A stretch of DNA of 46,219 nucleotides from a virus (IMGVR_UViG_2706794662_000004), one strand, 5' to 3'; counted from the first letter of the stretch, positions 246-42,980 are shown. Translations and numbers: made by a program. Notes: generated from the letters alone by a model not told the origin.

Positions 246-2159
246 ATGAGCAAAGTAAAAATCGGTGAATTAATAAACTCACTTGTTAGCGATGTTGAGT
301 CAATAGATAACTCTGACCGTCCTCAAGGGGAAAAAACAAAAAAAATAAAGGCTGTTGCATTAAAATTTAAAAATGCATTATTTAATGACAAGCGAAAGTT
401 TAGGGGGAAAGGATTAGAAAAAAGAATTACAGCCAACACATTCAATGCCTATATGAGCAGGGCCAGAAAACGGTTTGATGATAAACTTCATCATAGCTTT
501 GAAAAAAATATACATCGCCTATCTGAAAAGTATCCTTTATATAATGAGGAGCTATTGTCATGGCTTTCTCTACCTGCTGCCGATATTCGCCAGAGAATGT
601 CAACTTTACAGGCAAAATTAAAATTAATTCTCCCTTTATCAGAAGATTTATCTAATATCAGAATTGGTGATAACAAAAATCATAATAAGTTATTAAAATT
701 ATCAAATAAATATAAAGAGTGGCAATTCGCAATTTCTGATTTAACTAGCGATAACTGGAAAGATAAGCGCGATTATTTATATAAATTACTACAGCAAGGA
801 TCTGCCTTGCTTGAGGAGTTGAATCAGCTAAAAGTTAACCATGAGATTCTCTATCATCTTCAACTAAGCCCTGCCGAACGCGCATCTATCCAGCAACGAT
901 GGGCGGACGTTCTGCACAATAAGAAACGTAACGTGGTGGTCATTGATTACCCTAAATATATGCAAGCTATTTACGATATTATAAATAGCCCTGCTACATT
1001 AAATAATCTAAACACTCGTTCAGGTATGGCTCCTTTGGCATTTGCACTTGCTGCATTGTCAGGAAGACGAATGATTGAGATTATGTATCAAGGTACATTT
1101 ACTGTTTCTGGTAAGTATACCGTTGATTTTTTAGGCCAAGCTAAAAAAAGAACTTCTGATGATATAACCAGAAAAATATATACATTATGCGAAGCAAAAA
1201 CATTTGTTTATTTAATAAATGTACTTCGCTCATGCCCAGCAGCATCTGATTTTGATGATGTCGTTAAAGGTTATGGAGATAACGACACACGCTCTGAAAA
1301 CGGACGTATTAATGCCATATTAGCAAAGGCTTTTAACCCGTGGGTTAAATCATTTTTCAAAGATGACCGCCGTGTTTATAAAGATAGTCGTGCTATTTAT
1401 GCCCGTATTGCGTATGAAATGTTTTTCCGCGTAGATCCTCGTTGGAAAAACGTAGATGAGGATGTTTTCTTTATGGAAATTTTAGGCCATGACGATGAAA
1501 ACACTCAATTACACTATAAGCAATTCAAGCTGGCCAACTTCTCAAAGACATGGAGGCCAAATACTGGAAACGAAAATACCAGGCTGGAAGCATTGCAGCA
1601 GCTTGATGACGAAATGCCTGGATTCGCCAGAGGAGATGCCGGGGTTCGTCTGCATAACACAGTTAAGCAGCTGGTAGAGCAGGACCCCTCTATAAAAATC
1701 ACGAACAGCACTCTAAGAGCATTCAAATTTAGCCCAACAATGATTAGCCGATACCTGGAATTTGCTGCTGATGCTCTGGGGCAATTTGTTGGCGAAAATG
1801 GACAATGGCAGCTGAAAATAGATACTCCAGAAATCGTTATGCCTGACGAAGAAGAGCTGGAAGCAATACCTGAACAGACGGATGAATTATCAGATGATGA
1901 CGATCTGGATGACGACGAAATTGAGATAGAGGAAGAGGAAGAGGAAGAGGAAGAGGAAGAGGAAGAGAGCGTAGAAGAACAGCAACCGCCCGCGCCTTCT
2001 TCACCTGTATCTAAGCCGGTATTTAAGCCTGTGAGAAATATTGGTGATGGTTCATACGTTGTTGAGTTTCATTATAATGGCCAGAATTATGCTTGGTCCG
2101 GCAGTGCAAACAGCCCTATGTCAGCAATGCAGTTAGCATGGCTGACATATTTCGGATAA
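246..2159 (+). CDS. telN: Protelomerase (telomere resolvase) TelN
   Basis: 637-aa ORF whose N-terminus (MSKVKIGELIN...) and conserved blocks (e.g. RSGMAPLAFALAA, RAIYARIAYEMFF, KQFKLANFS) match my recollection of N15 TelN; it sits next to the telomere palindrome. Confidence 0.9.
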   Translation: MSKVKIGELINSLVSDVESIDNSDRPQGEKTKKIKAVALKFKNALFNDKRKFRGKGLEKRITANTFNAYMSRARKRFDDKLHHSFEKNIHRLSEKYPLYNEELLSWLSLPAADIRQRMSTLQAKLKLILPLSEDLSNIRIGDNKNHNKLLKLSNKYKEWQFAISDLTSDNWKDKRDYLYKLLQQGSALLEELNQLKVNHEILYHLQLSPAERASIQQRWADVLHNKKRNVVVIDYPKYMQAIYDIINSPATLNNLNTRSGMAPLAFALAALSGRRMIEIMYQGTFTVSGKYTVDFLGQAKKRTSDDITRKIYTLCEAKTFVYLINVLRSCPAASDFDDVVKGYGDNDTRSENGRINAILAKAFNPWVKSFFKDDRRVYKDSRAIYARIAYEMFFRVDPRWKNVDEDVFFMEILGHDDENTQLHYKQFKLANFSKTWRPNTGNENTRLEALQQLDDEMPGFARGDAGVRLHNTVKQLVEQDPSIKITNSTLRAFKFSPTMISRYLEFAADALGQFVGENGQWQLKIDTPEIVMPDEEELEAIPEQTDELSDDDDLDDDEIEIEEEEEEEEEEEEESVEEQQPPAPSSPVSKPVFKPVRNIGDGSYVVEFHYNGQNYAWSGSANSPMSAMQLAWLTYFG

Positions 2160-2170
2160 AGCATACAGTA

Positions 2171-2194
2171 AAGGCACCGAATTATCGGTGCCTT
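2171..2194. terminator. Hairpin terminator between telN and the minus-strand small-gene operon
   Basis: aaggcaccgaattatcggtgcctt stem-loop followed by a T-rich tract, 12 nt after the telN stop. Confidence 0.45.
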
Positions 2195-2201
2195 GTTGTG
2201 T

Positions 2202-2369
2202 GGCCTACCTCGCCTGCCCCTTTTCGTCCTCATCCAACTTTCTGATGGCCGTAGAATCAATACCCGCCGCCATACACACATCAGATGCAACAAACCACGG
2301 TTCGCCGTTAATCATCACTACACGAACCTGATGCTCTTCCTGAAAGGAAAAGACTGCTAACGCGCTCAT
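2202..2369 (-). CDS. Truncated BRO-N/KilA-N-like antirepressor N-terminal fragment (55 aa), possibly a gene remnant
   Basis: Hand translation MSALAVFSFQEEHQVRVVMINGEPWFVASDVCMAAGIDSTAIRKLDEDEKGQAR; AAGGAGG RBS; ATGA overlap with the upstream gene; ORF ends just before the telN terminator. Too short for the ORF track. Confidence 0.4.
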
Positions 2370-2599
2370 TCAGCCTCCTTATCGTGCAGCAATTGCGACG
2401 AGAGCGACGCTGAATACCCCTGTGCTTCGTGTGTTAGCTCACACGCAATTTGAAGGAGTTTCCCTGCTTCTGAGAGATAAATCGACGCCTCACAACTGGA
2501 GATTGTCCGATGGGCTGATGATACGAGCGCATAGACCTGAGCCAGACGTTCATCCAACGATTCCAGCAGGCCAACAGTGTTCATTTTTACCTGATTCAT
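2366..2599 (-). CDS. Hypothetical protein (77 aa), middle gene of a three-gene translationally coupled chain
   Basis: ORF with GAGGTGG RBS; its start overlaps the stop of the Icd-like ORF (ATGA) and its stop overlaps the start of the BRO-N fragment ORF. Confidence 0.45.
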   Translation of the reverse strand: MNQVKMNTVGLLESLDERLAQVYALVSSAHRTISSCEASIYLSEAGKLLQIACELTHEAQGYSASLSSQLLHDKEAE

Positions 2600-2760
2600 G
2601 CAGCCACCTCGCGCACCGGAATACGGGCAGACAATACCAGGACAAACCGGCTGGCGAACTGGCGACGAGCTTCCCGTTCAGATGACGCGATGGTGGAAAG
2701 ATGATGGATGTGTGACTTTTTGTCTGTGCGAACGACTGCCGCAAATTTGAATTTGAACAT
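2596..2760 (-). CDS. Icd-like small protein (54 aa), candidate cell-division inhibitor of a P1 immI-like / N15 immA-like locus
   Basis: Hand translation MFKFKFAAVVRTDKKSHIHHLSTIASSEREARRQFASRFVLVLSARIPVREVAA; resembles the Icd-like family as I recall it; GGAG RBS; not in the ORF track (<60 aa). Confidence 0.35.
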   Translation of the reverse strand: MFKFKFAAVVRTDKKSHIHHLSTIASSEREARRQFASRFVLVLSARIPVREVAA

Positions 2761-2921
2761 GGTATGCACTCCGTTTAATTGGTCGTGCTACCACCAGAGT
2801 TCCTACGCTCTATATGGCGGTAGCCCAGACGGGGGTAGGAATACCGGTAAACGAAGAAACCGGCCAGCTAAAAGCTGCCCCATCTGAGCCACCATAAATT
2901 TGGTGTACGCAGATTTTACAC

Positions 2922-3000
2922 ACAAAAAAACACGCAGGCGCGTGTTGTGCGCTTCATTTACTCGGGTTCCTACGCCCGGCTACGGGATTTACCGTAGCGG
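2922..3000 (-). ncRNA. Candidate c4/CI-like antisense immunity RNA (about 75-80 nt) with its own promoter and intrinsic terminator
   Basis: Minus strand has TTGACG -35 (about 3030-3035), a TAAAGT-like -10, then a 6-bp stem (acacgc/gcgtgt) with 4-nt loop followed by seven U (plus 2924-2946). The RNA contains gcgtaggaac, which recurs in the leader just upstream of the Icd-like RBS (plus 2799-2808). Confidence 0.3.
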
Positions 3001-3135
3001 AGTAACTTTACCGTCAAAACGACGCGCACGTCAATAATTTGCAAAGGCATTTTACCCCGTGACCAGTCACGGGGACAGGTGTTTTTATAGTTTGCTTAAA
3101 CGAGTGTTCAGAAGTTGATCGTTAATCAAAGGCCA

Positions 3136-3423
3136 TTACTGATTAAGAGATTGGAAATACCTAACTAACTTACCGGCATCATCACATTTTTCTTTATCTT
3201 CTTCCTTAACATAGCCGCGACAAAAGGCTGAATAAAATTTTGCATTTTCAGAAGCAAAAGCAGCCGTCGAAAGGAGCAGTTCTTTGCATGATTCTTTTGA
3301 TGCAGCATCGGGATTATTTTTACATGCAAGCTCTGCTGATGAGTCAATAACAGAAATGCTATCTTCCTGGGCATAAACCGCAGCAGAAAAGGCAAAACAT
3401 AAAACAAAAATAAAACTCTTCAC
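3136..3423 (-). CDS. Small secreted protein with four Cys (95 aa), unknown function
   Basis: N-terminal signal peptide MKSFIFVLCFAFSAAVYA-QE; AT-rich coding sequence. Confidence 0.55.
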   Translation of the reverse strand: MKSFIFVLCFAFSAAVYAQEDSISVIDSSAELACKNNPDAASKESCKELLLSTAAFASENAKFYSAFCRGYVKEEDKEKCDDAGKLVRYFQSLNQ

Positions 3424-3450
3424 TTTATCTCCTGTAACAGTTATCGCAAC

Positions 3451-3858
3451 TCAATCAACTTTTTTAGCATCAGCCATACGCTTCAACCAGTAATCAACAA
3501 TCGGTTGCTCATCCACAGAATGTTTACCAGGTATAACTCGCCAGCTGTCTGCCGAAAGGCTACCGTATCTATGCGGGAAAAGGCATTTCTTTAGCTCCTG
3601 CCATGTGCTAGGAAAACCGTCTGCCAAAGTGCCAATTAACAGAAAAGGGACAAAAATCAGGGCTACAAACCATCTGGCAAGAAAGTGCTCAACAATAACC
3701 TCTTCACCGTTATAGTAATACGCATACGTATCCCATATACGAATTTTCCTTACCCTAAAAATGGCCTTATGCTGAGAACGACTTAGCTTGATGCGAATGT
3801 ATCCCTTATCCAAGAGGGATTGGTGTTTGTATGATTGAACAGCCATTTTTAACCCCAC
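3451..3858 (-). CDS. Membrane protein (135 aa), unknown function
   Basis: ORF with hydrophobic helix FLARWFVALIFVPFLLIGTLA; the true start may be the internal Met at 3846. Confidence 0.5.
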   Translation of the reverse strand: MGLKMAVQSYKHQSLLDKGYIRIKLSRSQHKAIFRVRKIRIWDTYAYYYNGEEVIVEHFLARWFVALIFVPFLLIGTLADGFPSTWQELKKCLFPHRYGSLSADSWRVIPGKHSVDEQPIVDYWLKRMADAKKVD

Positions 3859-4175
3859 TCACCATCAGCAAACAAAGCGTTATACTCTGACAATGGTAGA
3901 CGGTTGCCCTCGATGTAGAGATTCAGTTCATACTTCGTCTCCGGGTTTTCCTTGTCTGCTCGTTCCCAACGCTCAGCAGCCTTACGCGCCAATAATTCCA
4001 CTGCTTTCAGGTAATCCTCCGTACGGAACCAGCCAAAGATAAGGCCACGATCTGTTACAGCCCAGGCGACCTTTTTTTCTTCCTCCTGGATAGCCTTAAT
4101 GCGTCGATCGCATTCATCCCGGCAGAACTGCAGCTGACGGTAATCAAGTTTGTCCAAAAATGCAGTAGTAGACAT
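3849..4175 (-). CDS. Hypothetical protein (108 aa)
   Basis: ORF in the same minus-strand operon downstream of repA; no recognisable motif. Confidence 0.5.
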   Translation of the reverse strand: MSTTAFLDKLDYRQLQFCRDECDRRIKAIQEEEKKVAWAVTDRGLIFGWFRTEDYLKAVELLARKAAERWERADKENPETKYELNLYIEGNRLPLSEYNALFADGEWG

Positions 4176-4179
4176 ATTT

Positions 4180-4371
4180 TTACTCCCCGTTCACCGAAAA
4201 ATCACGATAGAAACGTTTCCACATACGATAAGTCTGCGCGAGTTGTTCACCACGAAACATCGCCTTCCTGGCCTTCATGTTTTCCTTGTGAGACTTTCGA
4301 TCTATGAACCAAAACCATTGCTGGAACACACAAAGCAAGAGACACAAAGATAATATCCACTGATTACCCAT
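4180..4371 (-). CDS. Small membrane protein (63 aa) translationally coupled to repA
   Basis: Internal Met (MGNQWILSLCLLLCVFQQWFWF...) whose ATG at 4371-4369 overlaps the repA stop codon; the longer 102-aa reading overlaps repA by 125 nt. Confidence 0.35.
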   Translation of the reverse strand: MGNQWILSLCLLLCVFQQWFWFIDRKSHKENMKARKAMFRGEQLAQTYRMWKRFYRDFSVNGE

Positions 4372-7300
4372 AGAAAGCGCCCTGCTCTTCGTAGCTGCAT
4401 GAGCTATTCCCGGTAATGTATTCTCGTAACCGCCGCAGTTCATTGCTGGACAAGTGATCCATGAACTCTGTGAGGTACAGAGATGCAAACGTCATAGCTA
4501 TGCTGGTTGATGACCATGATGACATAGTGGCCAGCTCCTCACCGGAAAGCGCACTCATCGCCCAGGACTCAGGAACAGCCACCGGCAATACGGCCAAAGC
4601 CTCAGAAATTACTGAATGAGGGGCGTTTTGAACCTGCTCGTTTGTGGATCGCGTTTTATCATCCATATATATATTGAGATCCAAATCGCGATCCATTTCG
4701 ATGGCTGTCTTCTCGGCTTTACGCGTTTTTAGGGTTAGGCCATCTTTCTGACGCTGAACAAGAATATCCAGCATAAATGCCGCTGATTCAGGCTCAACAA
4801 AACGCAAGGTTGGACGCTTATCGCCGTCTCTGCCGCGACGTTTACCTGTTTTAAGGCCAAGAGAGTCGCAAATGTTTTTAAACAACGCTTCCGGCACTTT
4901 AGGCTTCCCTTTTGGCGTCATAAAACCACCAATGTGCAGAACGTTATTCAACAGGTCACGGCGTTCGGCTGTCATGAGATTATCTCGAGCGAATTTGAGA
5001 CGCTCCTGAGTCGCCTCGCCGGTCATAGTCTCAGGGTTGATACCGCAGTCGATAAAGTACTGCCGGAGAGTTGCTGATTTAAGCGCATAGAAACCGCGCG
5101 CCCCGACTTCAACAGTAGGAGTAGCTTTTACCTTGTGATCGATTATTCCAGGGAATTTAGTTTTAAAGACATCATCAGCCTGCTCGCGAGTCATCGCGGT
5201 CACTACAAAATATTGCCACTGTCCCGCCTGACGGTATGCGTAGGTAAAATTGATGGCTGCTTCTTCCCGGTCGTAACGACGAGCTGTTACCTCATCTAAA
5301 AGCATTGTTTCATAGCGGCGAACTTTGTCTCGAGCACCATCGAAATAGAATTTCAGTGTGCCTTCTTCAACCGGTAGTTTCAGTTCGTTTTCAATATCCC
5401 AGCGGACAAGTTTTGCCTGTTCTTCAAGCGTCAGCGCGCGTTTTTTTAGCAGTTCTTCACGCTCTGATTCTTGTGGAGTTTCTGTATTGAGGTGCAGATC
5501 CAGTGTCTGTTCCCACACAATATCCCGCGCTTCTTTACGCAGATCTTTACCGATATCATTCGCAGCATAATCGGTGCCCAGCGGCGATACCTTATAACCG
5601 TCGCTGTGCATGATGCAGATCATGTTGCTGGCGTAGTCGTTACGCGCAGTCGCTTCAATTGCGGCTGCTTTAATTTTCATCCTGGTAAAGTCGGTATTGG
5701 CCACCCCCATTGATATACGGTCGCCATCGAAAATGACATCCGTCAGTTCACCGTTCATACCTGCGGTAGCAAGCAATGCCTGGGCGAATGCTCGTTCTAT
5801 TTTTTGCGGGTCAGTTTCACGTTTTGCACGAGCTTTATCAAAGCCGATAATAAATTCTTTTGCTGTACGGTCGCGGCGTAGCATTTGCACTGCGTCGCTG
5901 GGTACAACTTCACCACAGAACATGCCGAAATGACGGTCAAAATGTTTTTGCTCAATCGACACGCCGGATGAAATAGACGGGCTATAAATCAGGCCGTCGT
6001 ATTTTTTGACCATCTTTTTCGGTTGATTGGTAAATGCTTCAACTTCTGGCTCTGGTTTGTTTTTCTGGTTTACACACAGAAATTTCTTACCAGGAAAATG
6101 CATTCTCAGGGTGGCTGTCACATCTTCTGCAAAGGTGGAGCTGTCGGTGGCCAACATGATTTTTTCGCCATCCGATACAGCTTTCACCACCTCGGTCATG
6201 ATGCGATCTTTTTCTGTATAAAAAACCCGGATTGGCTCACCTGTTTCGCGGTTGCGAACATCAACAGGTAATTCAATTACGTGGATCTGCAGCCATGCCG
6301 GTAAACCTAGTTCTTCACGGCGTTTCATAGCCAGTTCAGCCAGGTCAACCAGCAGATCGTTCGCATCAGCATCCACCATGATTGGGTGTTGTTCCGTTCT
6401 GGCCAGCGCGTCAATTAGCGTATTGAATACAGCCACCGGGTTTTCCATAGCCCGACCGGAAAGAACGGCACGTAGCCCTTGTGTGGCCTCGTCAAAGCCA
6501 AAATAGTCGTGCTGGCGCATCAACGGTTGCCAGCAGTTTTTAACAATCGAGTTTATGCAGATGGTCAGTTTACTGGCGTATGGAGCCATTTCCTGATAGC
6601 CAGGGTCCTGATAGTGCAGGATATCGGCTTTTACACCTTTTCCTTCAGTCATCATTTCCCACAGGCCACCAATAAGGGAAACACGGTGAGCTACAGAGAT
6701 ACCGCGTTCTGAGCTATGCATTAACGGTCGTAACAATCCAGTAGATTTGCCGGAACCCATACCAGCACGAACGATGACGATCCCCTGTAGTGATTGCACG
6801 TACTTCAGGACGTCATCGGTCATTACCGAAGTTTCAAAACGCTTATAGGTGATATGTTGAGGGCGTTTATTGGGATCAGTTATGCGTTCGCTGAAAGAGC
6901 GCGGAGCCTGGGCAATACGGCACTTTTTATTCAGGCGACGGGCAATGTGGTCTTTTACCGTAGCGCGATAGATATTTTCCAGCCCCATTTCACGCAGAAC
7001 GATGCAGAACATGTTAAACAAATCTGACGGACTGTTAGGAACCGGACAGGTTAGCATGCCAATATCCACCGCTCTCAGCAGCTCTTTGGCAAAAGTACGA
7101 CGGTTATCCCGCTTAATTGTCTTCAGGCGGTTGAGCGTCAGAGATAGCAAATCAGTGCCGGTTTTCAGGCGGTTTGCTGTTGCAAATAGTTGACGTGCTG
7201 TTTCACGAAGTCCACGTAGTTTGTGCAGGTCGTTGAAGTCACTGCACTCCATTTGCGGATCGTCTTCAAAAGTTGGATAGACGCAGCGGACATCGTTGAA

Positions 7301-8359
7301 TTTCGATAAGATTTCATAGCCAGTCCGCAGGCCGGTATTCCCTTTTCCTTCTGTGGCTGATTTCCGGTCATTATCCAGTGCGCAGGTGATTTTTGCCGCC
7401 GGGTACATGTTTACCAGTTGTTCCACAACATGAACCATGTTGTTAGCGGATACAGCGACAACCACAGCGTCAAAGCGTTTATCTTTTTTCGTGGCAAGCC
7501 AGATGGATGCACCAGTAGCAAAACCTTCTGTAACAGCGATGTTTTGCGCCCCTTTCAGCTCACCGATAACAAAGCAGGCACCGACGAAATCGCCGCTGGT
7601 TACTGCGCTGGTCTGGTATTTCCCACCTTGTTTGTCGATTCGCTGCCAACCCACAATACGACCATCGTAACGACCGTCCAGGTGAGCCAGAGGGATAGCC
7701 ATATATGTGGTTGGCCCCCGGTTCCATTTCGCACTGTCGTGACTGGTCACGCGACGCACATCACATGAACTAAAAACGTCACGAATACCTTTTTTAATCG
7801 CATATGGCCATGAGCCGTCTTCTGCAGGAGCATGTTCCCACGCGCTGTGGAATGCCAGCCATCCCAGCAAACGTTCATGGTCCATTTGGTTGTTTTTCAG
7901 GTCATTAATTCGTTTTTGTTCTTCACGGCGACGACGTGCTTCGGCCTGACGTTTTATTCTTGCCCGTTCTTCTTCCGGTTGTGCGACCACGGTCGCATTA
8001 TTCCGTTGTTGCTCACGGCGATATTCAGAAAACAGGAAGGAGAAACCGCTCCATGAGCCAGCATCGCTGCCTTTATGGACGAAGTTAATGAACGGGTAAT
8101 CAATCCCTTTGCTGTGTTCCAGCCGAGAGTAAATTTCTACGCGTCCTTTGAGGCTCTTTTCGAGAGCTTCTGGAGATGTTTTATTGTATGAAGAGTAACG
8201 CTCAACACCCCCGCGAGGGTTGAGTTGGATGTTGTCGGAACAGGCAGACCAGTTGATACCAGCCATCTGTGCCAGCTCGGTTAGTTCATCCCGTGCTGCT
8301 TCAATTAGCGAGAACGGATCGCTGCCAAAGCGATCCGCATAGAAATCGTTTAATGTCAT
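4364..8359 (-). CDS. repA: Multifunctional replication protein RepA (primase-helicase, 1331 aa)
   Basis: Size close to N15 RepA (about 1324 aa as I recall); Walker A GMGSGKST in the central helicase part; position upstream of the cB immunity region as in N15. Confidence 0.85.
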   Translation of the reverse strand: MTLNDFYADRFGSDPFSLIEAARDELTELAQMAGINWSACSDNIQLNPRGGVERYSSYNKTSPEALEKSLKGRVEIYSRLEHSKGIDYPFINFVHKGSDAGSWSGFSFLFSEYRREQQRNNATVVAQPEEERARIKRQAEARRRREEQKRINDLKNNQMDHERLLGWLAFHSAWEHAPAEDGSWPYAIKKGIRDVFSSCDVRRVTSHDSAKWNRGPTTYMAIPLAHLDGRYDGRIVGWQRIDKQGGKYQTSAVTSGDFVGACFVIGELKGAQNIAVTEGFATGASIWLATKKDKRFDAVVVAVSANNMVHVVEQLVNMYPAAKITCALDNDRKSATEGKGNTGLRTGYEILSKFNDVRCVYPTFEDDPQMECSDFNDLHKLRGLRETARQLFATANRLKTGTDLLSLTLNRLKTIKRDNRRTFAKELLRAVDIGMLTCPVPNSPSDLFNMFCIVLREMGLENIYRATVKDHIARRLNKKCRIAQAPRSFSERITDPNKRPQHITYKRFETSVMTDDVLKYVQSLQGIVIVRAGMGSGKSTGLLRPLMHSSERGISVAHRVSLIGGLWEMMTEGKGVKADILHYQDPGYQEMAPYASKLTICINSIVKNCWQPLMRQHDYFGFDEATQGLRAVLSGRAMENPVAVFNTLIDALARTEQHPIMVDADANDLLVDLAELAMKRREELGLPAWLQIHVIELPVDVRNRETGEPIRVFYTEKDRIMTEVVKAVSDGEKIMLATDSSTFAEDVTATLRMHFPGKKFLCVNQKNKPEPEVEAFTNQPKKMVKKYDGLIYSPSISSGVSIEQKHFDRHFGMFCGEVVPSDAVQMLRRDRTAKEFIIGFDKARAKRETDPQKIERAFAQALLATAGMNGELTDVIFDGDRISMGVANTDFTRMKIKAAAIEATARNDYASNMICIMHSDGYKVSPLGTDYAANDIGKDLRKEARDIVWEQTLDLHLNTETPQESEREELLKKRALTLEEQAKLVRWDIENELKLPVEEGTLKFYFDGARDKVRRYETMLLDEVTARRYDREEAAINFTYAYRQAGQWQYFVVTAMTREQADDVFKTKFPGIIDHKVKATPTVEVGARGFYALKSATLRQYFIDCGINPETMTGEATQERLKFARDNLMTAERRDLLNNVLHIGGFMTPKGKPKVPEALFKNICDSLGLKTGKRRGRDGDKRPTLRFVEPESAAFMLDILVQRQKDGLTLKTRKAEKTAIEMDRDLDLNIYMDDKTRSTNEQVQNAPHSVISEALAVLPVAVPESWAMSALSGEELATMSSWSSTSIAMTFASLYLTEFMDHLSSNELRRLREYITGNSSCSYEEQGAFYG
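7982..7997. promoter_or_regulatory. 16-bp perfect palindrome TGCGACCACGGTCGCA, candidate SopB centromere site (copy 1, inside repA)
   Basis: Exact palindrome, one of five copies; resembles the F sopC core TGGGACCACGGTCCCA. Confidence 0.5.
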
Positions 8360-8604: not shown

Positions 8605-9201
8605 TCATCTACCCTCAACCATGAATGATTTGATCGTTCCGACTATTTGGTGAACAAATTCAAGATCGCTTTTCCTGAAGATGGCGCGTTGTGAATTTGT
8701 TCCGTCCAGATAGTAATTTTCATCATCAAAACGGGCCAGGCGCTGGATGGTGATATTTCCTGCAGTATCACGAACCAGAACATCCTCGCCGGGGACCAGT
8801 TCCAGCGCAGAATCGACCAGGAGAAAATCGCCAGGCTGATAGTTTCCCTGCGCCAGATTGCTGATAGTTAACGCATAAACAGTATTGCGCTGGCTGATGA
8901 ATGGCAGGAATCGCTCAGTATTTGGAACCTGTCCTGGCTTCCACTCTTCATCAGGTCCACTTTCAGTTGTGCCAATAACAGGAATGCGATCAGGGTCATA
9001 TTCTGTCCCATACAGCACCCAATGCACTGGCTTGCGTAAGCATTTAGCCAGGGCAATACCTATCTCCAGTGACGGCATTACGTCGCCACGTTCTAAGTTT
9101 TGGACGCCTGCAATAGAGATATCGACAGCCTCAGCAACTTCTCGCAACGTCAGCTTCATCTCTAAACGGCGTGCTTTCAGTCGTTCGCCTCGTGTTTTCA
9201 T
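8605..9201 (-). CDS. cB: Prophage repressor CB (HTH plus S24 LexA/CI-like autopeptidase domain)
   Basis: 198-aa ORF with N-terminal HTH (LTLREVAEAVDISIAGVQNLERG) and a C-terminal CI/LexA-like domain; divergent from a cro-like gene across an operator region. Confidence 0.85.
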   Translation of the reverse strand: MKTRGERLKARRLEMKLTLREVAEAVDISIAGVQNLERGDVMPSLEIGIALAKCLRKPVHWVLYGTEYDPDRIPVIGTTESGPDEEWKPGQVPNTERFLPFISQRNTVYALTISNLAQGNYQPGDFLLVDSALELVPGEDVLVRDTAGNITIQRLARFDDENYYLDGTNSQRAIFRKSDLEFVHQIVGTIKSFMVEGR

Positions 9202-29998: not shown

Positions 29999-30414
29999 GT
30001 TTTGCCCTGAAACTGGCGCGTGAGATGGGGCGACCCGACTGGCGCGCCATGCTTGCCGGGATGTCATCCACGGAGTATGCCGACTGGCACCGCTTTTACA
30101 GTACCCATTATTTTCATGATGTTCTGCTGGATATGCACTTTTCCGGGCTGACATACACCGTGCTCAGCCTGTTTTTCAGCGATCCGGATATGCATCCGCT
30201 GGATTTCAGTCTGCTGAACCGGCGCGAGGCTGACGAAGAGCCTGAAGATGATGTGCTGATGCAGAAAGCGGCAGGGCTTGCCGGAGGTGTCCGCTTTGGC
30301 CCGGACGGGAATGAAGTTATCCCTACTTCCCCGGATGTGGCGGACATGACGGAGGATGACGTAATGCTGATGACAGTATCAGAAGGGATCGCAGGAGGAG
30401 TCCGGTATGGCTGA
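29980..30414 (+). CDS. T: T-frame portion of the G-T fusion, expressed by programmed -1 frameshift from G
   Basis: -1 frame ORF opening exactly at the GGGAAAG slippery site and running to the start of H; the classic lambda G/G-T arrangement. Confidence 0.7.
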   Translation: MFDGELSFALKLAREMGRPDWRAMLAGMSSTEYADWHRFYSTHYFHDVLLDMHFSGLTYTVLSLFFSDPDMHPLDFSLLNRREADEEPEDDVLMQKAAGLAGGVRFGPDGNEVIPTSPDVADMTEDDVMLMTVSEGIAGGVRYG

Positions 30415-32968
30415 ACCGGTAGGCGATCTGGTCGTTGATTTGAGTCTGGATGCGGCCAGATTTGACGAGCAGATGGCCAGAGTCAGGCGTCATTTTTCCG
30501 GTACGGAAAGTGATGCGAAAAAAACAGCGGCAGTCGTTGAACAGTCGCTGAGCCGACAGGCGCTGGCTGCACAGAAAGCGGGGATTTCCGTCGGGCAGTA
30601 TAAAGCCGCCATGCGTATGCTGCCTGCACAGTTCACCGACGTGGCCACGCAGCTTGCAGGCGGGCAAAGTCCGTGGCTGATCCTGCTGCAACAGGGTGGT
30701 CAGGTTAAGGACTCCTTCGGCGGGATGATCCCCATGTTCAGGGGGCTTGCCGGTGCGATCACCCTGCCGATGGTGGGGGCCACCTCGCTGGCGGTGGCGA
30801 CCGGTGCGCTGGCGTATGCCTGGTATCAGGGCAACTCAACCCTGTCCGATTTCAACAAAACGCTGGTCCTTTCCGGCAATCAGTCGGGGCTGACGGCAGA
30901 TCGTATGCTGGTCCTGTCCAGAGCCGGGCAGGCGGCAGGGCTGACGTTTAACCAGACCAGCGAGTCACTCAGCGCACTGGTTAAGGCGGGGGTAAGCGGT
31001 GAGGCTCAGATTGCGTCCATCAGCCAGAGTGTGGCGCGTTTCTCCTCTGCATCCGGCGTGGAGGTGGACAAGGTCGCTGAAGCCTTCGGGAAGCTGACCA
31101 CAGACCCGACGTCGGGGCTGACGGCGATGGCACGCCAGTTCCATAACGTGACGGCGGAGCAGATTGCGTATGTTGCTCAGTTGCAGCGTTCCGGCGATGA
31201 AGCCGGGGCATTGCAGGCGGCGAACGAGGCCGCAACGAAAGGGTTTGATGACCAGACCCGCCGCCTGAAAGAGAACATGGGCACGCTGGAGACCTGGGCA
31301 GACAGGACTGCGCGGGCCTTCAAATCCATGTGGGATGCGGTGCTGGATATTGGTCGTCCTGATACCGCGCAGGAGATGCTGATTAAGGCAGAGGCTGCGT
31401 TTAAGAAAGCAGACGACATCTGGAATCTGCGCAAGGATGATTATTTTGTTAACGATGAAGCGCGGGCGCGTTACTGGGATGATCGTGAAAAGGCCCGTCT
31501 TGCGCTTGAAGCCGCCCGAAAGAAGGCTGAGCAGCAGACTCAACAGGACAAAAATGCGCAGCAGCAGAGCGATACCGAAGCGTCACGGCTGAAATATACC
31601 GAAGAGGCGCAGAAGGCTTACGAACGGCTGCAGACGCCGCTGGAGAAATATACCGCCCGTCAGGAAGAACTGAACAAGGCACTGAAAGACGGGAAAATCC
31701 TGCAGGCGGATTACAACACGCTGATGGCGGCGGCGAAAAAGGATTATGAAGCGACGCTGAAAAAGCCGAAACAGTCCGGCGTGAAGGTGTCTGCGGGCGA
31801 TCGTCAGGAAGACAGTGCTCATGCTGCCCTGCTGACGCTTCAGGCAGAACTCCGGACGCTGGAGAAGCATGCCGGAGCAAATGAGAAAATCAGCCAGCAG
31901 CGCCGGGATTTGTGGAAGGCAGAAAGTCAGTTCGCGGTACTGGAGGAGGCGGCACAACGTCGCCAGCTATCCGCACAGGAGAAATCCCTGCTGGCGCATA
32001 AAGATGAGACGCTGGAGTACAAACGCCAGCTGGCTGCACTTGGCGACAAGGTTACGTATCAGGAGCGCCTGAACGCGCTGGCGCAGCAGGCGGATAAATT
32101 CGCACAGCAGCAACGGGCAAAACGGGCCGCCATTGATGCGAAAAGCCGGGGGCTGACTGACCGGCAGGCAGAACGGGAAGCCACGGAACAGCGCCTGAAG
32201 GAACAGTATGGCGATAATCCGCTGGCGCTGAATAACGTCATGTCAGAGCAGAAAAAGACCTGGGCGGCTGAAGACCAGCTTCGCGGGAGCTGGATGACAG
32301 GCCTGAAGTCCGGCTGGAGTGAGTGGGAAGAGAGCGCCACGGACAGTATGTCGCAGGTAAAAAGTGCAGCCACGCAGACCTTTGATGGTATTGCACAGAA
32401 TATGGCAGCGATGCTGACCGGCAGTGAGCAGAACTGGCGCAGCTTCACCCGTTCCGTGCTGTCCATGATGACAGAAATTCTGCTTAAGCAGGCAATGGTG
32501 GGGATTGTCGGGAGTATCGGCAGCGCCATTGGCGGGGCTGTTGGTGGCGGCGCATCCGCGTCAGGCGGTACAGCCATTCAGGCCGCTGCGGCGAAATTCC
32601 ATTTTGCAACCGGAGGATTTACGGGAACCGGCGGCAAATATGAGCCAGCGGGGATTGTTCACCGTGGTGAGTTTGTCTTCACGAAGGAGGCAACCAGCCG
32701 GATTGGCGTGGGGAATCTTTACCGGCTGATGCGCGGCTATGCCACCGGCGGTTATGTCGGTACACCGGGCAGCATGGCAGACAGCCGGTCGCAGGCGTCC
32801 GGGACGTTTGAGCAGAATAACCATGTGGTGATTAACAACGACGGCACGAACGGGCAGATAGGTCCGGCTGCTCTGAAGGCGGTGTATGACATGGCCCGCA
32901 AGGGTGCCCGTGATGAAATTCAGACACAGATGCGTGATGGTGGCCTGTTCTCCGGAGGTGGACGATGA
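30407..32968 (+). CDS. H: Tail tape measure protein H (853 aa)
   Basis: Same length as lambda gpH; position after G-T. Confidence 0.9.
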   Translation: MAEPVGDLVVDLSLDAARFDEQMARVRRHFSGTESDAKKTAAVVEQSLSRQALAAQKAGISVGQYKAAMRMLPAQFTDVATQLAGGQSPWLILLQQGGQVKDSFGGMIPMFRGLAGAITLPMVGATSLAVATGALAYAWYQGNSTLSDFNKTLVLSGNQSGLTADRMLVLSRAGQAAGLTFNQTSESLSALVKAGVSGEAQIASISQSVARFSSASGVEVDKVAEAFGKLTTDPTSGLTAMARQFHNVTAEQIAYVAQLQRSGDEAGALQAANEAATKGFDDQTRRLKENMGTLETWADRTARAFKSMWDAVLDIGRPDTAQEMLIKAEAAFKKADDIWNLRKDDYFVNDEARARYWDDREKARLALEAARKKAEQQTQQDKNAQQQSDTEASRLKYTEEAQKAYERLQTPLEKYTARQEELNKALKDGKILQADYNTLMAAAKKDYEATLKKPKQSGVKVSAGDRQEDSAHAALLTLQAELRTLEKHAGANEKISQQRRDLWKAESQFAVLEEAAQRRQLSAQEKSLLAHKDETLEYKRQLAALGDKVTYQERLNALAQQADKFAQQQRAKRAAIDAKSRGLTDRQAEREATEQRLKEQYGDNPLALNNVMSEQKKTWAAEDQLRGSWMTGLKSGWSEWEESATDSMSQVKSAATQTFDGIAQNMAAMLTGSEQNWRSFTRSVLSMMTEILLKQAMVGIVGSIGSAIGGAVGGGASASGGTAIQAAAAKFHFATGGFTGTGGKYEPAGIVHRGEFVFTKEATSRIGVGNLYRLMRGYATGGYVGTPGSMADSRSQASGTFEQNNHVVINNDGTNGQIGPAALKAVYDMARKGARDEIQTQMRDGGLFSGGGR

Positions 32969-39581: not shown

Positions 39582-42500
39582 ATGGCAGTACGGATTTCAG
39601 GTGTACTGAAAGATGGCGCAGGTAAGCCGATACAAAACTGCACCATTCAGCTAAAGGCCAGGCGCAACAGCACCACGGTGGTGGTGAACACAGTGGCCTC
39701 AGAAAACCCGGATGAAGCCGGGCGTTACACAATGGACGTCGAGTATGGTCAGTACAGCGTCAGTCTGTTGGTGGAGGGATTCCCGCCGTCACACGCCGGG
39801 ACCATCACCGTGTATGAAGATTCCCGACCCGGTACGCTGAATGATTTTCTCGGTGCCATGACGGAGGATGATGCCCGTCCTGAGGCACTGCGCCGTTTTG
39901 AACTGATGGTGGAAGAGGTGGCGCGTAACGCGTCCGCGGTGGCACAGAACACGGCAGCCGCGAAGAAGTCAGCCAGCGATGCCAGCACATCAGCCCGTGA
40001 GGCGGCAACCCATGCGACTGATGCTGCAGGCTCAGCACGCGCAGCCAGCACGTCAGCCGGACAGGCCGCGTCGTCGGCTCAGTCAGCATCTTCCAGCGCA
40101 GGAACGGCATCAACAAAGGCCAGTGAAGCATCGAAAAGTGCTGCTGCTGCAGAGTCCTCAAAAAGCGCGGCAGCTACCAGTGCCGGTGCGGCGAAAACGT
40201 CAGAAACGAATGCGGCAGCGTCACAACAATCAGCAGCCACTTCTGCATCCGCCGCGACCACGAAGGCGTCAGAAGCAGCCACCTCAGCCCGGGATGCGGC
40301 GGCCTCAAAAGAGGCAGCGAAATCATCAGAAACGAACGCATCATCAAGCGCCAGTAGTGCCGCTTCCTCGGCAACGGCGGCAGGCAATTCCGCGAAGGCG
40401 GCAAAGACGTCTGAGACAAACGCCAGGTCTTCTGAAACGGCAGCGGGACAGAGCGCCTCGGCTGCGGCAGGCTCAAAAACAGCGGCTGCGTCGTCTGCCA
40501 GTGCCGCGTCAACAAGTGCCGGGCAGGCCTCAGCCAGTGCCACCGCCGCCGGAAAATCGGCAGAAAGCGCCGCATCGTCTGCTTCAACAGCCACAACGAA
40601 GGCTGGCGAAGCCACTGAACAGGCCAGCGCAGCAGCAAGGTCTGCTTCCGCAGCGAAGACATCCGAGACGAACGCGAAAGCGTCGGAAACCAGCGCAGAA
40701 TCCTCAAAAACGGCTGCCGCATCGTCCGCCAGTTCGGCGGCGTCATCGGCATCATCGGCGTCTGCTTCAAAAGATGAGGCGACCAGACAAGCGTCCGCAG
40801 CGAAGGGCAGCGCCACGACGGCATCCACGAAGGCGACAGAGGCAGCTGGCAGTGCGACGGCGGCAGCACAGAGCAAAAGTACGGCGGAATCCGCGGCAAC
40901 GCGCGCCGAGACAGCGGCAAAACGGGCAGAGGATATTGCATCCGCCGTGGCGCTTGAGGATGCAAGTACGACGAAAAAGGGGATAGTACAGCTCAGCAGT
41001 GCGACCAACAGTACGTCTGAAACGCTGGCGGCAACGCCAAAGGCAGTAAAATCAGCCTATGACAATGCAGAGAAACGTCTGCAGAAAGACCAGAACGGCG
41101 CTGATATACCCGATAAGGGACGCTTCCTGAACAACATTAACGCGGTCAGTAAAACAGACTTTGCTGATAAGCGTGGTATGCGTTATGTGCGGGTTAACGC
41201 TCCTGCAGGTGCAACATCTGGAAAATATTACCCTGTTGTTGTTATGCGTTCTGCTGGCTCAGTAAGCGAACTGGCATCAAGGGTCATTATCACCACGGCA
41301 ACGCGAACCGCAGGCGATCCGATGAATAACTGCGAGTTTAACGGATTTGTTATGCCTGGTGGCTGGACTGACAGGGGGCGTTATGCTTATGGAATGTTCT
41401 GGCAATATCAAAACAATGAACGAGCCATCCACTCAATAATGATGAGTAATAAGGGCGATGATTTGCGCTCTGTGTTCTATGTTGATGGCGCTGCTTTCCC
41501 TGTTTTTGCGTTTATCGAAGATGGCCTGTCAATATCCGCACCTGGTGCTGATCTCGTTGTTAATGATACGACCTATAAGTTTGGGGCAACAAATCCGGCG
41601 ACTGAATGTATCGCGGCGGACGTTATCCTTGATTTTAAGAGTGGGCGTGGTTTTTATGAGTCTCATTCGTTAATCGTTAACGATAACTTGTCGTGCAAAA
41701 AACTTTTTGCCACAGACGAAATTGTAGCGCGTGGTGGTAATCAGATTCGAATGATAGGTGGGGAGTATGGGGCATTATGGCGTAATGATGGCGCTAAAAC
41801 TTACCTGCTGCTTACCAATCAAGGTGATGTTTATGGTGGCTGGAATACATTAAGACCGTTTGCTATTGATAACGCAACCGGCGAACTGGTTATTGGAACC
41901 AAACTGTCCGCAAGTCTGAACGGTAATGCATTAACAGCAACAAAGCTGCAAACGCCAAGACGGGTTTCTGGTGTTGAGTTTGATGGTTCCAAAGATATTA
42001 CTTTAACCGCCGCGCATGTGGCTGCTTTTGCCAGAAGGGCAACGGATACATATGCCGATGCGGATGGTGGCGTTCCCTGGAATGCCGAATCAGGCGCTTA
42101 TAATGTCACCCGCTCTGGCGACAGCTATATTCTGGTTAACTTCTATACCGGAGTCGGAAGTTGCCGGACCTTGCAGATGAAGGCGCATTACAGAAATGGT
42201 GGTCTGTTCTACCGTTCTTCAAGAGACGGTTATGGTTTTGAGGATGACTGGGCAGAAGTTTATACCTCGAAAAATCTTCCACCAGAAAGCTACCCAGTCG
42301 GCGCACCAATCCCGTGGCCATCAGATACCGTTCCGTCTGGTTATGCCCTGATGCAGGGGCAGACTTTTGACAAATCTGCTTACCCGAAACTTGCAGCCGC
42401 TTATCCGTCAGGCGTGATCCCTGATATGCGTGGCTGGACGATTAAGGGCAAACCTGCCAGTGGTCGGGCCGTATTGTCTCAGGAACAGGACGGCATTAAA

Positions 42501-42980
42501 TCGCATACCCACAGCGCCAGCGCATCCAGTACAGATTTGGGGACGAAAACCACATCGTCGTTTGATTACGGCACTAAATCCACGAATAACACTGGTGCGC
42601 ATACCCATAGTTTAAGTGGCAGCACGAATGCAGCTGGTAATCACAGCCATAGAGATGGCCGTCGATTTAACCCCAGTGTTTTTAAAGATACTTATCAATA
42701 TGGTTATACAAGCTCAGGTCAAAATACCTGGGGTGTACAAGGCTCAGTAGGTATGTCTACGGGGTGGTTAGCGAATACCAGTACAGATGGTAATCATAGC
42801 CATTCACTGTCCGGCACAGCAGCATCTGCAGGTGCACACGCGCATACTGTCGGTATTGGTGCTCATACGCACTCCGTTGCGATTGGTTCACATGGACACA
42901 CCATCACCGTTAACGCTGCTGGTAACGCGGAAAACACCGTCAAAAACATCGCATTTAACTATATTGTGAGGCTTGCATAA
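39582..42980 (+). CDS. stf: Side tail fibre protein Stf (1132 aa)
   Basis: N-terminus [38 protein letters not shown] and His-rich C-terminus (HSHSLSGT ... [15 protein letters not shown] ... [11 protein letters not shown]) match recalled lambda Stf. Confidence 0.85.

What the first reader, a model, noticed from the sequence alone, without database searches (positions are those of the whole stretch)
3136..4371. Cargo operon downstream of repA encoding a secreted Cys-containing protein and two small membrane proteins
Four minus-strand ORFs follow repA, the first coupled to its stop codon. They include a 95-aa protein with a clear cleavable signal peptide and four cysteines, and two proteins with single hydrophobic helices. 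Envelope-targeted small proteins co-transcribed with the replication gene in a plasmid-prophage are candidates for lysogenic conversion, exclusion or immunity functions; none is recognisable to me.
Basis: partly seen in the sequence, partly recalled or inferred. Interest (0 to 1): 0.45.

Follow-up and report, generated by a model that had tools for sequence, protein, structure and literature searches.

The report
Small envelope genes behind repA
Four small genes do follow the replication gene of this N15-like linear phage-plasmid, but only the last one, an uncharacterised secreted four-cysteine helical protein also found inside the tail gene clusters of unrelated prophages, behaves as swappable cargo; its function is untested, and my best guess is that it blocks entry of rival phages.

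Summary
Four tightly packed minus-strand genes (A 63 aa, B 108 aa, C 131 aa, D 95 aa) follow repA. A's start codon overlaps the repA stop codon.

The "cargo operon" reading is only partly right:
- B is the N15 gp35 homologue and is conserved across telomere phages.
- C belongs to a small membrane-protein family that also sits directly downstream of replication genes in the two other phage contexts inspected. It is under purifying selection.
- A has a partial homologue at the same position in Klebsiella telomere phages.
- Only D behaves as a moron. Its GC is 37% against about 49% in repA and B, and it fills a variable slot (3114-3435) that holds other genes in sister plasmids.

Distant relatives of D (29-44% identity, all four cysteines conserved) lie inside siphovirus tail modules, including the slot where HK97 carries its gp15 exclusion moron.

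One GenBank relative labels D "Spackle". This rests on signal-peptide similarity only and fails the sequence and fold tests.

D has no recognisable sequence or structural homologue. Its function is unknown. My best guess, at about 0.35, is a soluble periplasmic protein that excludes superinfecting phages. This is an ordinary kind of feature with modest interest.

The parts
4364..8359 (-). repA (1331 aa; primase/helicase-type replication protein of N15-like telomere phages). It is the upstream gene of the operon.
   Evidence: ORF listing. Annotated as primase or CyRepA1-family replication protein in relatives.
4180..4371 (-). ORF A: 63 aa, with an N-terminal hydrophobic helix (residues 5-23, nt 4303-4359) and a very basic C-terminal tail of 40 aa (charge +5.9). 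Its start codon overlaps the repA stop codon (ATGGGTAA).
   Evidence: Intact in 4 relatives. Annotated in PhiR46_1 and pS159-3. A 39%-identical homologue lies beside the B homologue in Klebsiella phages NAR688 and Kpn_R1. Largely deleted in pS142-3.
3849..4175 (-). ORF B: 108 aa, soluble and acidic. It is the N15 gp35 homologue (phrog_10878).
   Evidence: 64% identity to N15 gp35, E 9e-51. PHROG E 1.9e-52. Present in N15, Klebsiella, Enterobacter and Yersinia telomere phages and in some large myoviruses.
3451..3846 (-). ORF C: 131 aa, single-pass membrane protein (hydrophobic stretch residues 59-75 within nt 3619-3675). It has a basic N-terminal domain and a conserved GFPxT motif just after the helix (phrog_15458). 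An alternative GTG start lies at 3858.
   Evidence: dN/dS 0.26. dS is 0.29 against 0.03 in flanking repA, so it is a recombinant allele. Homologues lie directly downstream of repA in Yersinia P840 and of the DNA polymerase in Proteus phage Isfahan.
3136..3423 (-). ORF D: 95-aa precursor. The signal peptide is residues 1-18 (nt 3370-3423). The mature protein is 77 aa, acidic (pI 4.7) and four-helical, with conserved Cys34, Cys46, Cys68 and Cys80 (phrog_26765).
   Evidence: AlphaFold2 with a 13-sequence alignment gave mean pLDDT 81, with blocks over residues 21-90 between 84 and 96, and helices at 22-33, 40-57, 61-71 and 74-93.
3114..3435 (-). Variable moron slot that holds D. The flanks are conserved in sister plasmids that carry other genes here.
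   Evidence: Slot boundaries come from blastn against relatives. E. albertii pEA8_3 carries a 270-aa ORF here instead. Seven PLSDB plasmids match A, B and C but not D. D's GC is 37.2% against 48.6-48.7% for B and repA.
3055..3074 (-). Conserved backbone hairpin CCCCGTGA-CTGG-TCACGGGG between the slot and the anti-immunity promoter. It may be a weak end of the operon. It has no U-tract.
   Evidence: Sequence. RNA fold. The same motif follows the divergent D allele in L021. The terminator scan did not call it.
2813..3034 (-). Start of the next unit, a P1 immI-like anti-immunity locus. It comprises a promoter-like site (3005-3034), the c4-a1b1 targets, an isrK-like element and the C4 antisense RNA (2813-2899). 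It marks the downstream limit of the finding.
   Evidence: Promoter and terminator scan. Rfam C4 at 73.6 bits, isrK at 62.8 bits, c4-a1b1 at 37.8 bits. 78% identity to the N15 gene 31-33/cA region.

Best explanation
The block is a mosaic 3' extension of the repA operon of an N15-type linear phage-plasmid. It is not one functional cassette.

A, B and C are semi-conserved small proteins of telomere-phage replication operons. B is the gp35 family. C is a membrane-protein family also found next to replication genes in other phages. A is a tiny membrane protein translationally coupled to repA. All three functions are unknown, and their presence varies between relatives.

D is a classic moron: a low-GC, self-contained gene dropped into a variable slot between the repA operon and the c4/icd/ant anti-immunity locus.

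D is exported by Sec and cleaved after Ala18. In the periplasm it should fold into a small four-helix protein. Its two helical hairpins are presumably stapled by Cys34-Cys46 and Cys68-Cys80 disulfides (inferred).

Most likely function (inferred, about 0.35): D acts on its own in the periplasm of the lysogen, and late in infection, to stop superinfecting lambda-like siphoviruses after adsorption. It would interfere with the tail tip or tape-measure step of genome delivery. In principle this resembles T4 Spackle, P1 Sim and HK97 gp15, but D is not homologous to any of them.

Shown: gene structure, conservation, moron behaviour, genomic contexts and the predicted fold. Inferred: export, disulfides, co-transcription with repA and the exclusion function.
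For: Mosaic structure:
- B is 64% identical to N15 gp35, while A, C and D have no N15 counterpart.
- B is present across telomere phages.
- C homologues sit directly downstream of repA or of a DNA polymerase in other phages.
- C has dN/dS 0.26 and about 10-fold higher dS than the flanks.
- An A homologue lies beside the B homologue in Klebsiella phages.

D as a moron:
- Its GC is 37% against 49% in repA and B.
- The slot 3114-3435 is replaced by other genes in sister plasmids.
- A 41-44%-identical D allele occupies the same slot in another N15-like element, L021.
- Relatives at 29-37% identity lie inside tail modules. P0021, P0018 and P0014 sit between the tail chaperone and the tape-measure gene. 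P0019 and P0013 sit among the gpK, gpI and gpJ genes.
- In all six contexts the gene is low-GC (33-41% against 49-54%). In four of the five tail contexts it is followed by a terminator-like hairpin.
- The chaperone/tape-measure slot is where HK97 carries gp15, a proven superinfection-exclusion moron (PMC3594210).

Export and fold:
- The signal peptide and four cysteines are conserved.
- The mature domain models confidently as four helices.

All D-bearing phages examined, including this one, have lambda-gpH-type tape measures and lambda-like tip proteins.
Against: - There is no functional evidence of any kind.
- PADLOC finds nothing.
- In the window D has no detectable promoter of its own and no U-tract terminator. 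The strict moron definition is therefore only partly met here.
- Lambda-type tails are so common in enterobacterial siphoviruses that sharing them is weak evidence.
- Envelope morons in tail regions can do other things. Lom, for example, is an adhesin.
- The family is tiny, with about 13 clean members. This limits the comparative inference.
Confidence: 0.4

Rival explanations
1. D is a lysogenic-conversion factor that benefits the host in a way unrelated to phages. Examples would be periplasmic protection against colicins, T6SS effectors or lysozyme, or envelope-stress or colonisation functions, as with Lom or Bor.
For: D is secreted, disulfide-bonded, small and low-GC, and it moves between prophages. 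The same element carries lom in its tail region. PADLOC finds no defence signature.
Against: Nothing specific supports it. D shows no similarity to known immunity or inhibitor proteins by sequence or fold. Its relatives repeatedly sit next to tape-measure and tail-tip genes, which fits the known exclusion morons better.
Confidence: 0.2
2. A, B and C, and possibly the whole block, are accessory factors for replication or maintenance of the linear plasmid-prophage. They might, for example, tether or regulate RepA at the membrane. On this view they are not envelope cargo.
For: A is translationally coupled to repA. B is conserved behind repA in N15, Klebsiella, Enterobacter and Yersinia telomere phages. 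C homologues lie immediately after repA in Yersinia P840 and after the DNA polymerase in Proteus phage Isfahan. C is under purifying selection.
Against: Presence is patchy. N15 lacks A and C, and pS142-3 has lost most of A and lacks C. B homologues in large myoviruses and in a Pseudomonas phage are not next to an obvious replicase. D clearly does not fit, because it sits in tail modules elsewhere.
Confidence: 0.2
3. D is a homologue of T4 Spackle (gp61.3) and inhibits a tail lysozyme, as the GenBank annotation of phage PhiR46_1 states.
For: The 96-97%-identical protein in PV340565.1 is labelled 'Spackle exclusion protein'. Both are secreted proteins of about 95-97 aa.
Confidence: 0.03
4. Some or all of the ORFs are non-coding chance frames.
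For: A is short. PGAP lists it in only some relatives (3 of the 4 genes are usually called). Too few substitutions exist to test selection on A.
Against: B, C and D have full-length PHROG matches. C has dN/dS 0.26. The D family conserves its signal peptide and four cysteines at 29-44% identity. A has a distant homologue in the same position in Klebsiella phages. The genes are tightly spaced and each has a Shine-Dalgarno motif.
Confidence: 0.02

Closest known systems
HK97 gp15 moron (superinfection exclusion; Cumby et al. 2012; review PMC3594210)
   Same: [quoted passage not shown] They are low-GC and are followed by a terminator, like gene 15. ORF A shares gp15's size and architecture: 62-63 aa, with an N-terminal transmembrane helix and a charged tail.
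   Different: Neither D nor A shows sequence similarity to gp15, and there is no YebO Pfam hit. gp15 is an inner-membrane protein, whereas D is predicted to be soluble in the periplasm. In the window D lies behind repA, not in the tail operon.
T4 Spackle (Sp, gp61.3), periplasmic inhibitor of the gp5 tail lysozyme
   Same: Both are small secreted phage proteins of about 95 aa. A homologue of D carries this label in GenBank.
   Different: Only the signal peptides align. There is no sequence or fold match. Mature Spackle has two cysteines, while D has four in a different pattern.
P1 Sim (simABC), periplasmic superimmunity/exclusion proteins next to the c4-icd-ant immI locus
   Same: In both cases genes for signal-peptide proteins lie directly beside a C4 antisense RNA/icd/ant locus in a plasmid-prophage.
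   Different: There is no sequence similarity. sim is transcribed divergently from c4, whereas D is co-directional and upstream. SimC is 264 aa.
N15 genes 33-36 (region between repA and the cA anti-immunity locus)
   Same: The position and the packing behind repA are the same. B is gp35 at 64% identity. N15 gp33 has a soluble part followed by one hydrophobic helix, somewhat like C.
   Different: A, C and D have no N15 homologue. N15 gp36, gp34 and gp33 occupy the corresponding places. The N15 genes have no family assignment here either.

Membership tests
T4 Spackle (gp61.3) family | Detectable sequence homology of the mature protein to Spackle | tested here: not met
   phmmer and profile searches against the PDB (which holds 6x6o and 7cn6) gave no hit at E<=10. 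hhalign aligns only signal-peptide residues 1-16. blastp gave nothing.
T4 Spackle (gp61.3) family | Spackle fold | tested here: not met
T4 Spackle (gp61.3) family | Binds and inhibits a phage tail lysozyme in the periplasm | not testable with these tools
   Needs biochemistry or genetics.
Moron (Juhala/Hendrix definition, as summarised in PMC3594210) | Extra gene absent from closely related genomes, with deviating GC content | tested here: met
   D is absent or replaced in 7 sister plasmids and in N15. Its GC is 37% against 49% in repA and B. The same pattern holds in six other contexts.
Moron (Juhala/Hendrix definition, as summarised in PMC3594210) | Own promoter and terminator allowing expression from the repressed prophage | tested here: inconclusive
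   In the window no promoter-like site lies upstream of D, and only a hairpin without a U-tract lies downstream. In four of the five tail-module contexts of relatives a terminator-like hairpin follows the gene. The scan found no promoter upstream of the gene in any of the three contexts scanned.
Sec-exported, signal peptidase I-cleaved periplasmic protein (D) | n-, h- and c-regions with small residues at -3 and -1; no lipobox | tested here: met
   By inspection: MK, then 14 hydrophobic residues, then V-Y-A|Q. Ala18 is invariant in the family. Cys9 is not preceded by a lipobox and is not conserved. No dedicated predictor was available.
HK97 gp15 / YebO family (considered for ORF A) | Sequence homology to gp15/YebO | tested here: not met
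   blastp of A against gp15 gave no hit. Pfam gave nothing at E<=1. Only the size and architecture are alike.
N15 gp35 family / phrog_10878 (ORF B) | Full-length sequence homology | tested here: met
   64% identity over 107 aa, E 9e-51. The PHROG profile matches positions 1-104 of 104, E 1.9e-52.
P1 Sim superimmunity proteins | Sequence homology to SimA, SimB or SimC | tested here: not met
   blastp of A-D against SimA/B/C gave a best E of 0.14, which is noise.
Known anti-phage defence systems (PADLOC-DB v2) | Match to any defence-system protein model | tested here: not met
   No hit at E<=1 for A-D. No hit at E<=0.01 for the alternative slot genes.

The most novel reading that the evidence does not exclude
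The D family (a signal peptide plus a four-helix domain with two cysteine pairs, each predicted to staple one helical hairpin) is a previously unrecognised class of soluble periplasmic superinfection-exclusion proteins. It would be carried as a moron by lambda-tailed temperate phages and would intercept the tape-measure or tail-tip complex during periplasmic transit. This would be a periplasmic counterpart of HK97 gp15, unrelated to Spackle, Sim, Cor or Llp.
Probability: 0.2. Interest if true: 0.6.

Novelty: new member of a known kind. Interest (0 to 1): 0.3.

Why it matters
If D blocks phage genome entry, it would add a small and tractable periplasmic protein to the few known exclusion factors that act after adsorption. 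It could then serve as a probe for how lambda-type tails cross the periplasm. The work also corrects a misleading public annotation ("Spackle"). It shows that the region behind repA in telomere phages is a mosaic of conserved unknowns plus an exchange slot. As it stands, however, this is an ordinary set of uncharacterised phage accessory genes, found in only 17 of 5426 complete E. coli genomes.

Tried and rejected
1. Spackle homology, prompted by the GenBank label in PV340565.1. Rejected: only the signal peptides align.
2. A weak DUF2385/TIGR02301 hit to D (E 0.07-0.09). Rejected: only 1 of 13 family members hits it.
3. PADLOC, Pfam and NCBIfam scans of A-D and of the alternative slot genes. 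Nothing found.
4. blastp against P1 SimA/B/C, HK97 gp15 and T4 Sp. Only noise.
6. A test of whether D presence tracks the tape-measure allele among sister plasmids.
   - All 14 D-positive plasmids found in the search have an uninterrupted lambda-type gpH match, while 5 of 7 D-negative ones have a diverged patch.
   - The patch lies in the central part of gpH (aa about 320-400), a coiled-coil region by my reading of the sequence. The C-terminal region is nearly identical.
   - The association is therefore most likely phylogenetic, and I rejected it as functional evidence.
7. A word-indexed homologue search for C returned only close relatives. tblastn against phage genomes reached further.
8. 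Literature searches for PhiR46_1 or ECOR13 and for N15 exclusion functions found nothing on these genes. SNIPE, which came up in one ECOR13 paper, is unrelated.
9. There are too few substitutions to run a codon-level selection test on A.

Full report
**Context.** The window is an N15-type linear plasmid-prophage written in prophage orientation.
- telN lies at 246-2159 (+), repA at 4364-8359 (-), and a CB/cI-like repressor at 8605-9201 (-).
- The head and tail genes are lambda-like and the partition genes are parAB.
- The closest record is Escherichia phage PhiR46_1 from ECOR13, at 94.6% identity over 2100-4500.
- The 1.3-kb block of the finding occurs in 28 PLSDB plasmids and in 17 of 5426 complete E. 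coli genomes, always on plasmids.

**Observation.** Four minus-strand ORFs follow repA with almost no spacing.
- A (4180-4371, 63 aa). Its ATG lies in TATGGGTAA and overlaps the repA stop codon.
- B (3849-4175, 108 aa). It starts 4 nt after A.
- C (3451-3846, 131 aa). It starts 2 nt after B.
- D (3136-3423, 95 aa, GTG start, AGGAG Shine-Dalgarno). It starts 27 nt after C.

D begins with MK, a 14-residue hydrophobic core and VYA|QE, which is a standard signal peptidase I site. The mature protein is 77 aa and acidic (pI 4.7), with four cysteines. A has one hydrophobic helix at residues 5-23 and a strongly basic tail. C has a basic N-terminal half and one helix around residues 59-75.

**Are the ORFs real genes?**
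- B, C and D match PHROG families end to end, with E-values of 1e-52 to 1e-78. All three families have unknown function.
- C differs from the PhiR46_1 allele at 42 nucleotides and has dN/dS 0.26. Its dS (0.29) is about ten times that of the adjoining repA (0.03). C is therefore a selected protein that has been exchanged by recombination.
- A is intact in four relatives but has too few substitutions for a selection test.
- A 39%-identical stretch covering A's residues 17-62 lies immediately beside the B homologue in Klebsiella telomere phages NAR688 and Kpn_R1. This supports A as a gene.

**The block is a mosaic, not one cassette.**
- B is 64% identical to N15 gp35. A, C and D have no N15 counterpart, and N15 has gp36, gp34 and gp33 in their places.
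- B homologues occur behind repA in N15, Klebsiella, Enterobacter and Yersinia telomere phages, and also in some large myoviruses.
- C homologues (25-41% identity) share a conserved R/H-rich N-terminal motif, the helix and a GFPxT motif after it.
- C homologues lie directly downstream of repA in Yersinia phage P840 and directly downstream of the DNA polymerase in Proteus phage Isfahan. tblastn rows for three further Proteus phages list a polymerase or PolB-type exonuclease under the match.
- pS142-3 has lost most of A and lacks C.
- So B and C look like recurring companions of phage replication genes, and their presence varies between relatives.

**D is the true moron.**
- Its GC is 37.2%, against 48.6-48.7% for B and repA.
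- Alignment with relatives delimits a variable slot at 3114-3435. The flanks are conserved on both sides.
- Seven sister plasmids keep A, B and C but not D. E. albertii pEA8_3 has an unrelated 270-aa ORF in the slot.
- Downstream of the slot comes a conserved hairpin (3055-3074) and then the P1 immI-like anti-immunity locus. That locus has a promoter-like site at 3005-3034, the c4-a1b1 targets, an isrK-like element and the C4 antisense RNA at 2813-2899.

**The D family.**
- Exhaustive HMMER over 1.84 billion representative proteins, plus a profile search over 5.8 billion, found only about 13 clean members.
- Several other database entries are frameshift chimeras with the +1 frame.
- Members at 29-44% identity keep the signal peptide and all four cysteines. 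One close relative, P0002, is gapped at Cys80. The cysteine pattern is C-x8-11-C ... C-x11-13-C.
- AlphaFold2 with this alignment gives mean pLDDT 81, with blocks over residues 21-90 between 84 and 96. Helices run at 22-33, 40-57, 61-71 and 74-93.
- This places Cys34/Cys46 and Cys68/Cys80 on either side of the two helix-turn-helix turns. I infer two hairpin-stapling disulfides. The model coordinates could not be inspected.

**Where D relatives live.**
- P0011 sits in the same slot (repA ... D ... icd-like, Bro-N, telN) of a different N15-like element, with the same backbone hairpin downstream.
- All other relatives examined sit inside siphovirus tail modules.
  - P0019 lies between a gpK-like gene (JAB plus NlpC/P60) and a gpI-like gene.
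  - P0013 lies between gpI and the downstream tip genes.
- In all six contexts the gene is 33-41% GC within flanks of 49-54%.
- In four of the five tail contexts a terminator-like hairpin follows it.
- The chaperone/tape-measure slot is exactly where HK97 carries gene 15. That gene was the first named moron, and its inner-membrane product blocks genome injection by HK97 and HK75 (PMC3594210).
- In L023 the D relative sits beside an Arc/Arc/Bro-N/ORF6N antirepressor module. In the window it sits beside c4/icd/ant.
- P1 likewise has its periplasmic superimmunity operon simABC abutting c4-icd-ant, though transcribed divergently.

**The "Spackle" label.** PhiR46_1 annotates its D homologue as "Spackle exclusion protein". 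I reject this as homology.
- T4 Spackle is in the PDB as 6x6o and 7cn6.
- Neither phmmer nor the family profile finds it at E<=10.
- hhalign aligns only the 16-residue signal peptide.
- No similarity exists to P1 Sim proteins or to HK97 gp15 either.
- PADLOC, Pfam and NCBIfam give nothing for A-D or for the alternative slot genes.
- A marginal DUF2385 hit is not shared by other family members.

**Mechanism.**
- Shown: gene anatomy, conservation, moron behaviour, genomic contexts and a confident helical model.
- Inferred: Sec export, cleavage after Ala18, two disulfides and read-through transcription from repA. Read-through would mean low expression in lysogens and higher expression after derepression.
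- Best guess for D (about 0.35): a soluble periplasmic factor that interferes with genome delivery by superinfecting lambda-tailed phages.
- Grounds for that guess:
  - Characterised envelope morons in enterobacterial tail regions are mostly exclusion factors (gp15, Cor, Llp).
  - D relatives occupy those same slots.
  - All D-bearing phages examined have lambda-gpH-type tape measures. The window's own gpH gene is 99.3% identical to 48.5-kb PLSDB records that I take to be phage lambda itself.
- This is circumstantial. Lambda-type tails are common, and Lom shows that tail-region morons can have other roles.
- A correlation between D presence and the gpH allele among sister plasmids disappears on inspection. 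The differing patch lies in the central part of gpH (aa about 320-400), a coiled-coil region by my reading of the sequence, and most likely reflects shared ancestry.
- For A, B and C I can say only that they recur with phage replication genes. A membrane-linked replication-accessory role and an early exclusion role both remain open.

**Verdict.**
- The "cargo operon" interpretation is partly supported: D yes, A perhaps, B and C no.
- This is a new and very small family within a well-known kind of feature, the moron-encoded envelope proteins of temperate phages.
- Interest is modest at 0.3. It would rise to about 0.6 if D proves to be a new class of periplasmic entry blocker.

Noticed in passing
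window 2813-3034 (-): Rfam finds a complete C4 antisense RNA (2813-2899, 73.6 bits), an isrK-like element (2925-2998) and the c4-a1b1 target sites (2959-3011), all downstream of a promoter-like site (3005-3034). Together they make a P1 immI/N15 cA-type anti-immunity locus directly after ORF D.
   Followed up: partly
window 2205-2369 (-): The antirepressor (BRO-N) gene of the anti-immunity locus is only 54 aa here and in close relatives, against 259-264 aa in N15, pEA8_3 and L021. The anti-immunity system may be defective in this lineage.
   Followed up: no
window 3055-3074 (-): A perfect 8-bp hairpin, CCCCGTGA-CTGG-TCACGGGG, without a U-tract. It is conserved in all relatives, including a distant N15-like element (L021), whatever gene fills the slot upstream. 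It could be a weak terminator or a protein-binding palindrome.
   Followed up: partly
window 30407-32968 (+) and the 20-40 kb region: The tape-measure gene is 99.3% identical at DNA level to 48.5-kb PLSDB 'plasmids' from Salmonella, Stenotrophomonas and Paenibacillus, which look like phage lambda itself. GC jumps from about 41% to 53-60% at about 20 kb. The element therefore appears to combine an N15-type plasmid/early arm with a lambda structural arm.
   Followed up: partly
window 3451-3846 (-): ORF C is a recombination patch. Its dS against PhiR46_1 is 0.29, while the adjoining repA has 0.03. Two allele types (about 85% amino-acid identity) circulate among sister plasmids.
   Followed up: yes
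window about 40000-41000 within the side tail fibre gene 39582-42980 (+): A long Ala/Ser/Thr-rich low-complexity tract gives GC 0.62 and AT skew 0.39. It also creates long spurious ORFs in other frames.
   Followed up: partly
window about 1890-1985 within telN (246-2159, +): TelN carries a poly-glutamate/acidic tract (EIEIEEEEEEEEEEEEE) near its C-terminus.
   Followed up: no
database proteins P0003, P0005, P0007, P0008, P0010 (homologues of window 3136-3423): Several public versions of D are chimeras between the D frame and the overlapping +1 frame (window ORF 3165-3407). They most likely come from indel errors in assemblies, and they inflate the apparent diversity of the family.
   Followed up: partly
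L005-L008, 5708-6004 (Citrobacter prophage tail module): The D relative P0021 is preceded, with a 4-nt overlap, by a 98-aa FtsK_gamma-domain protein inside the same moron between the tail chaperone and the tape measure. This pairing is unexplained.
   Followed up: no
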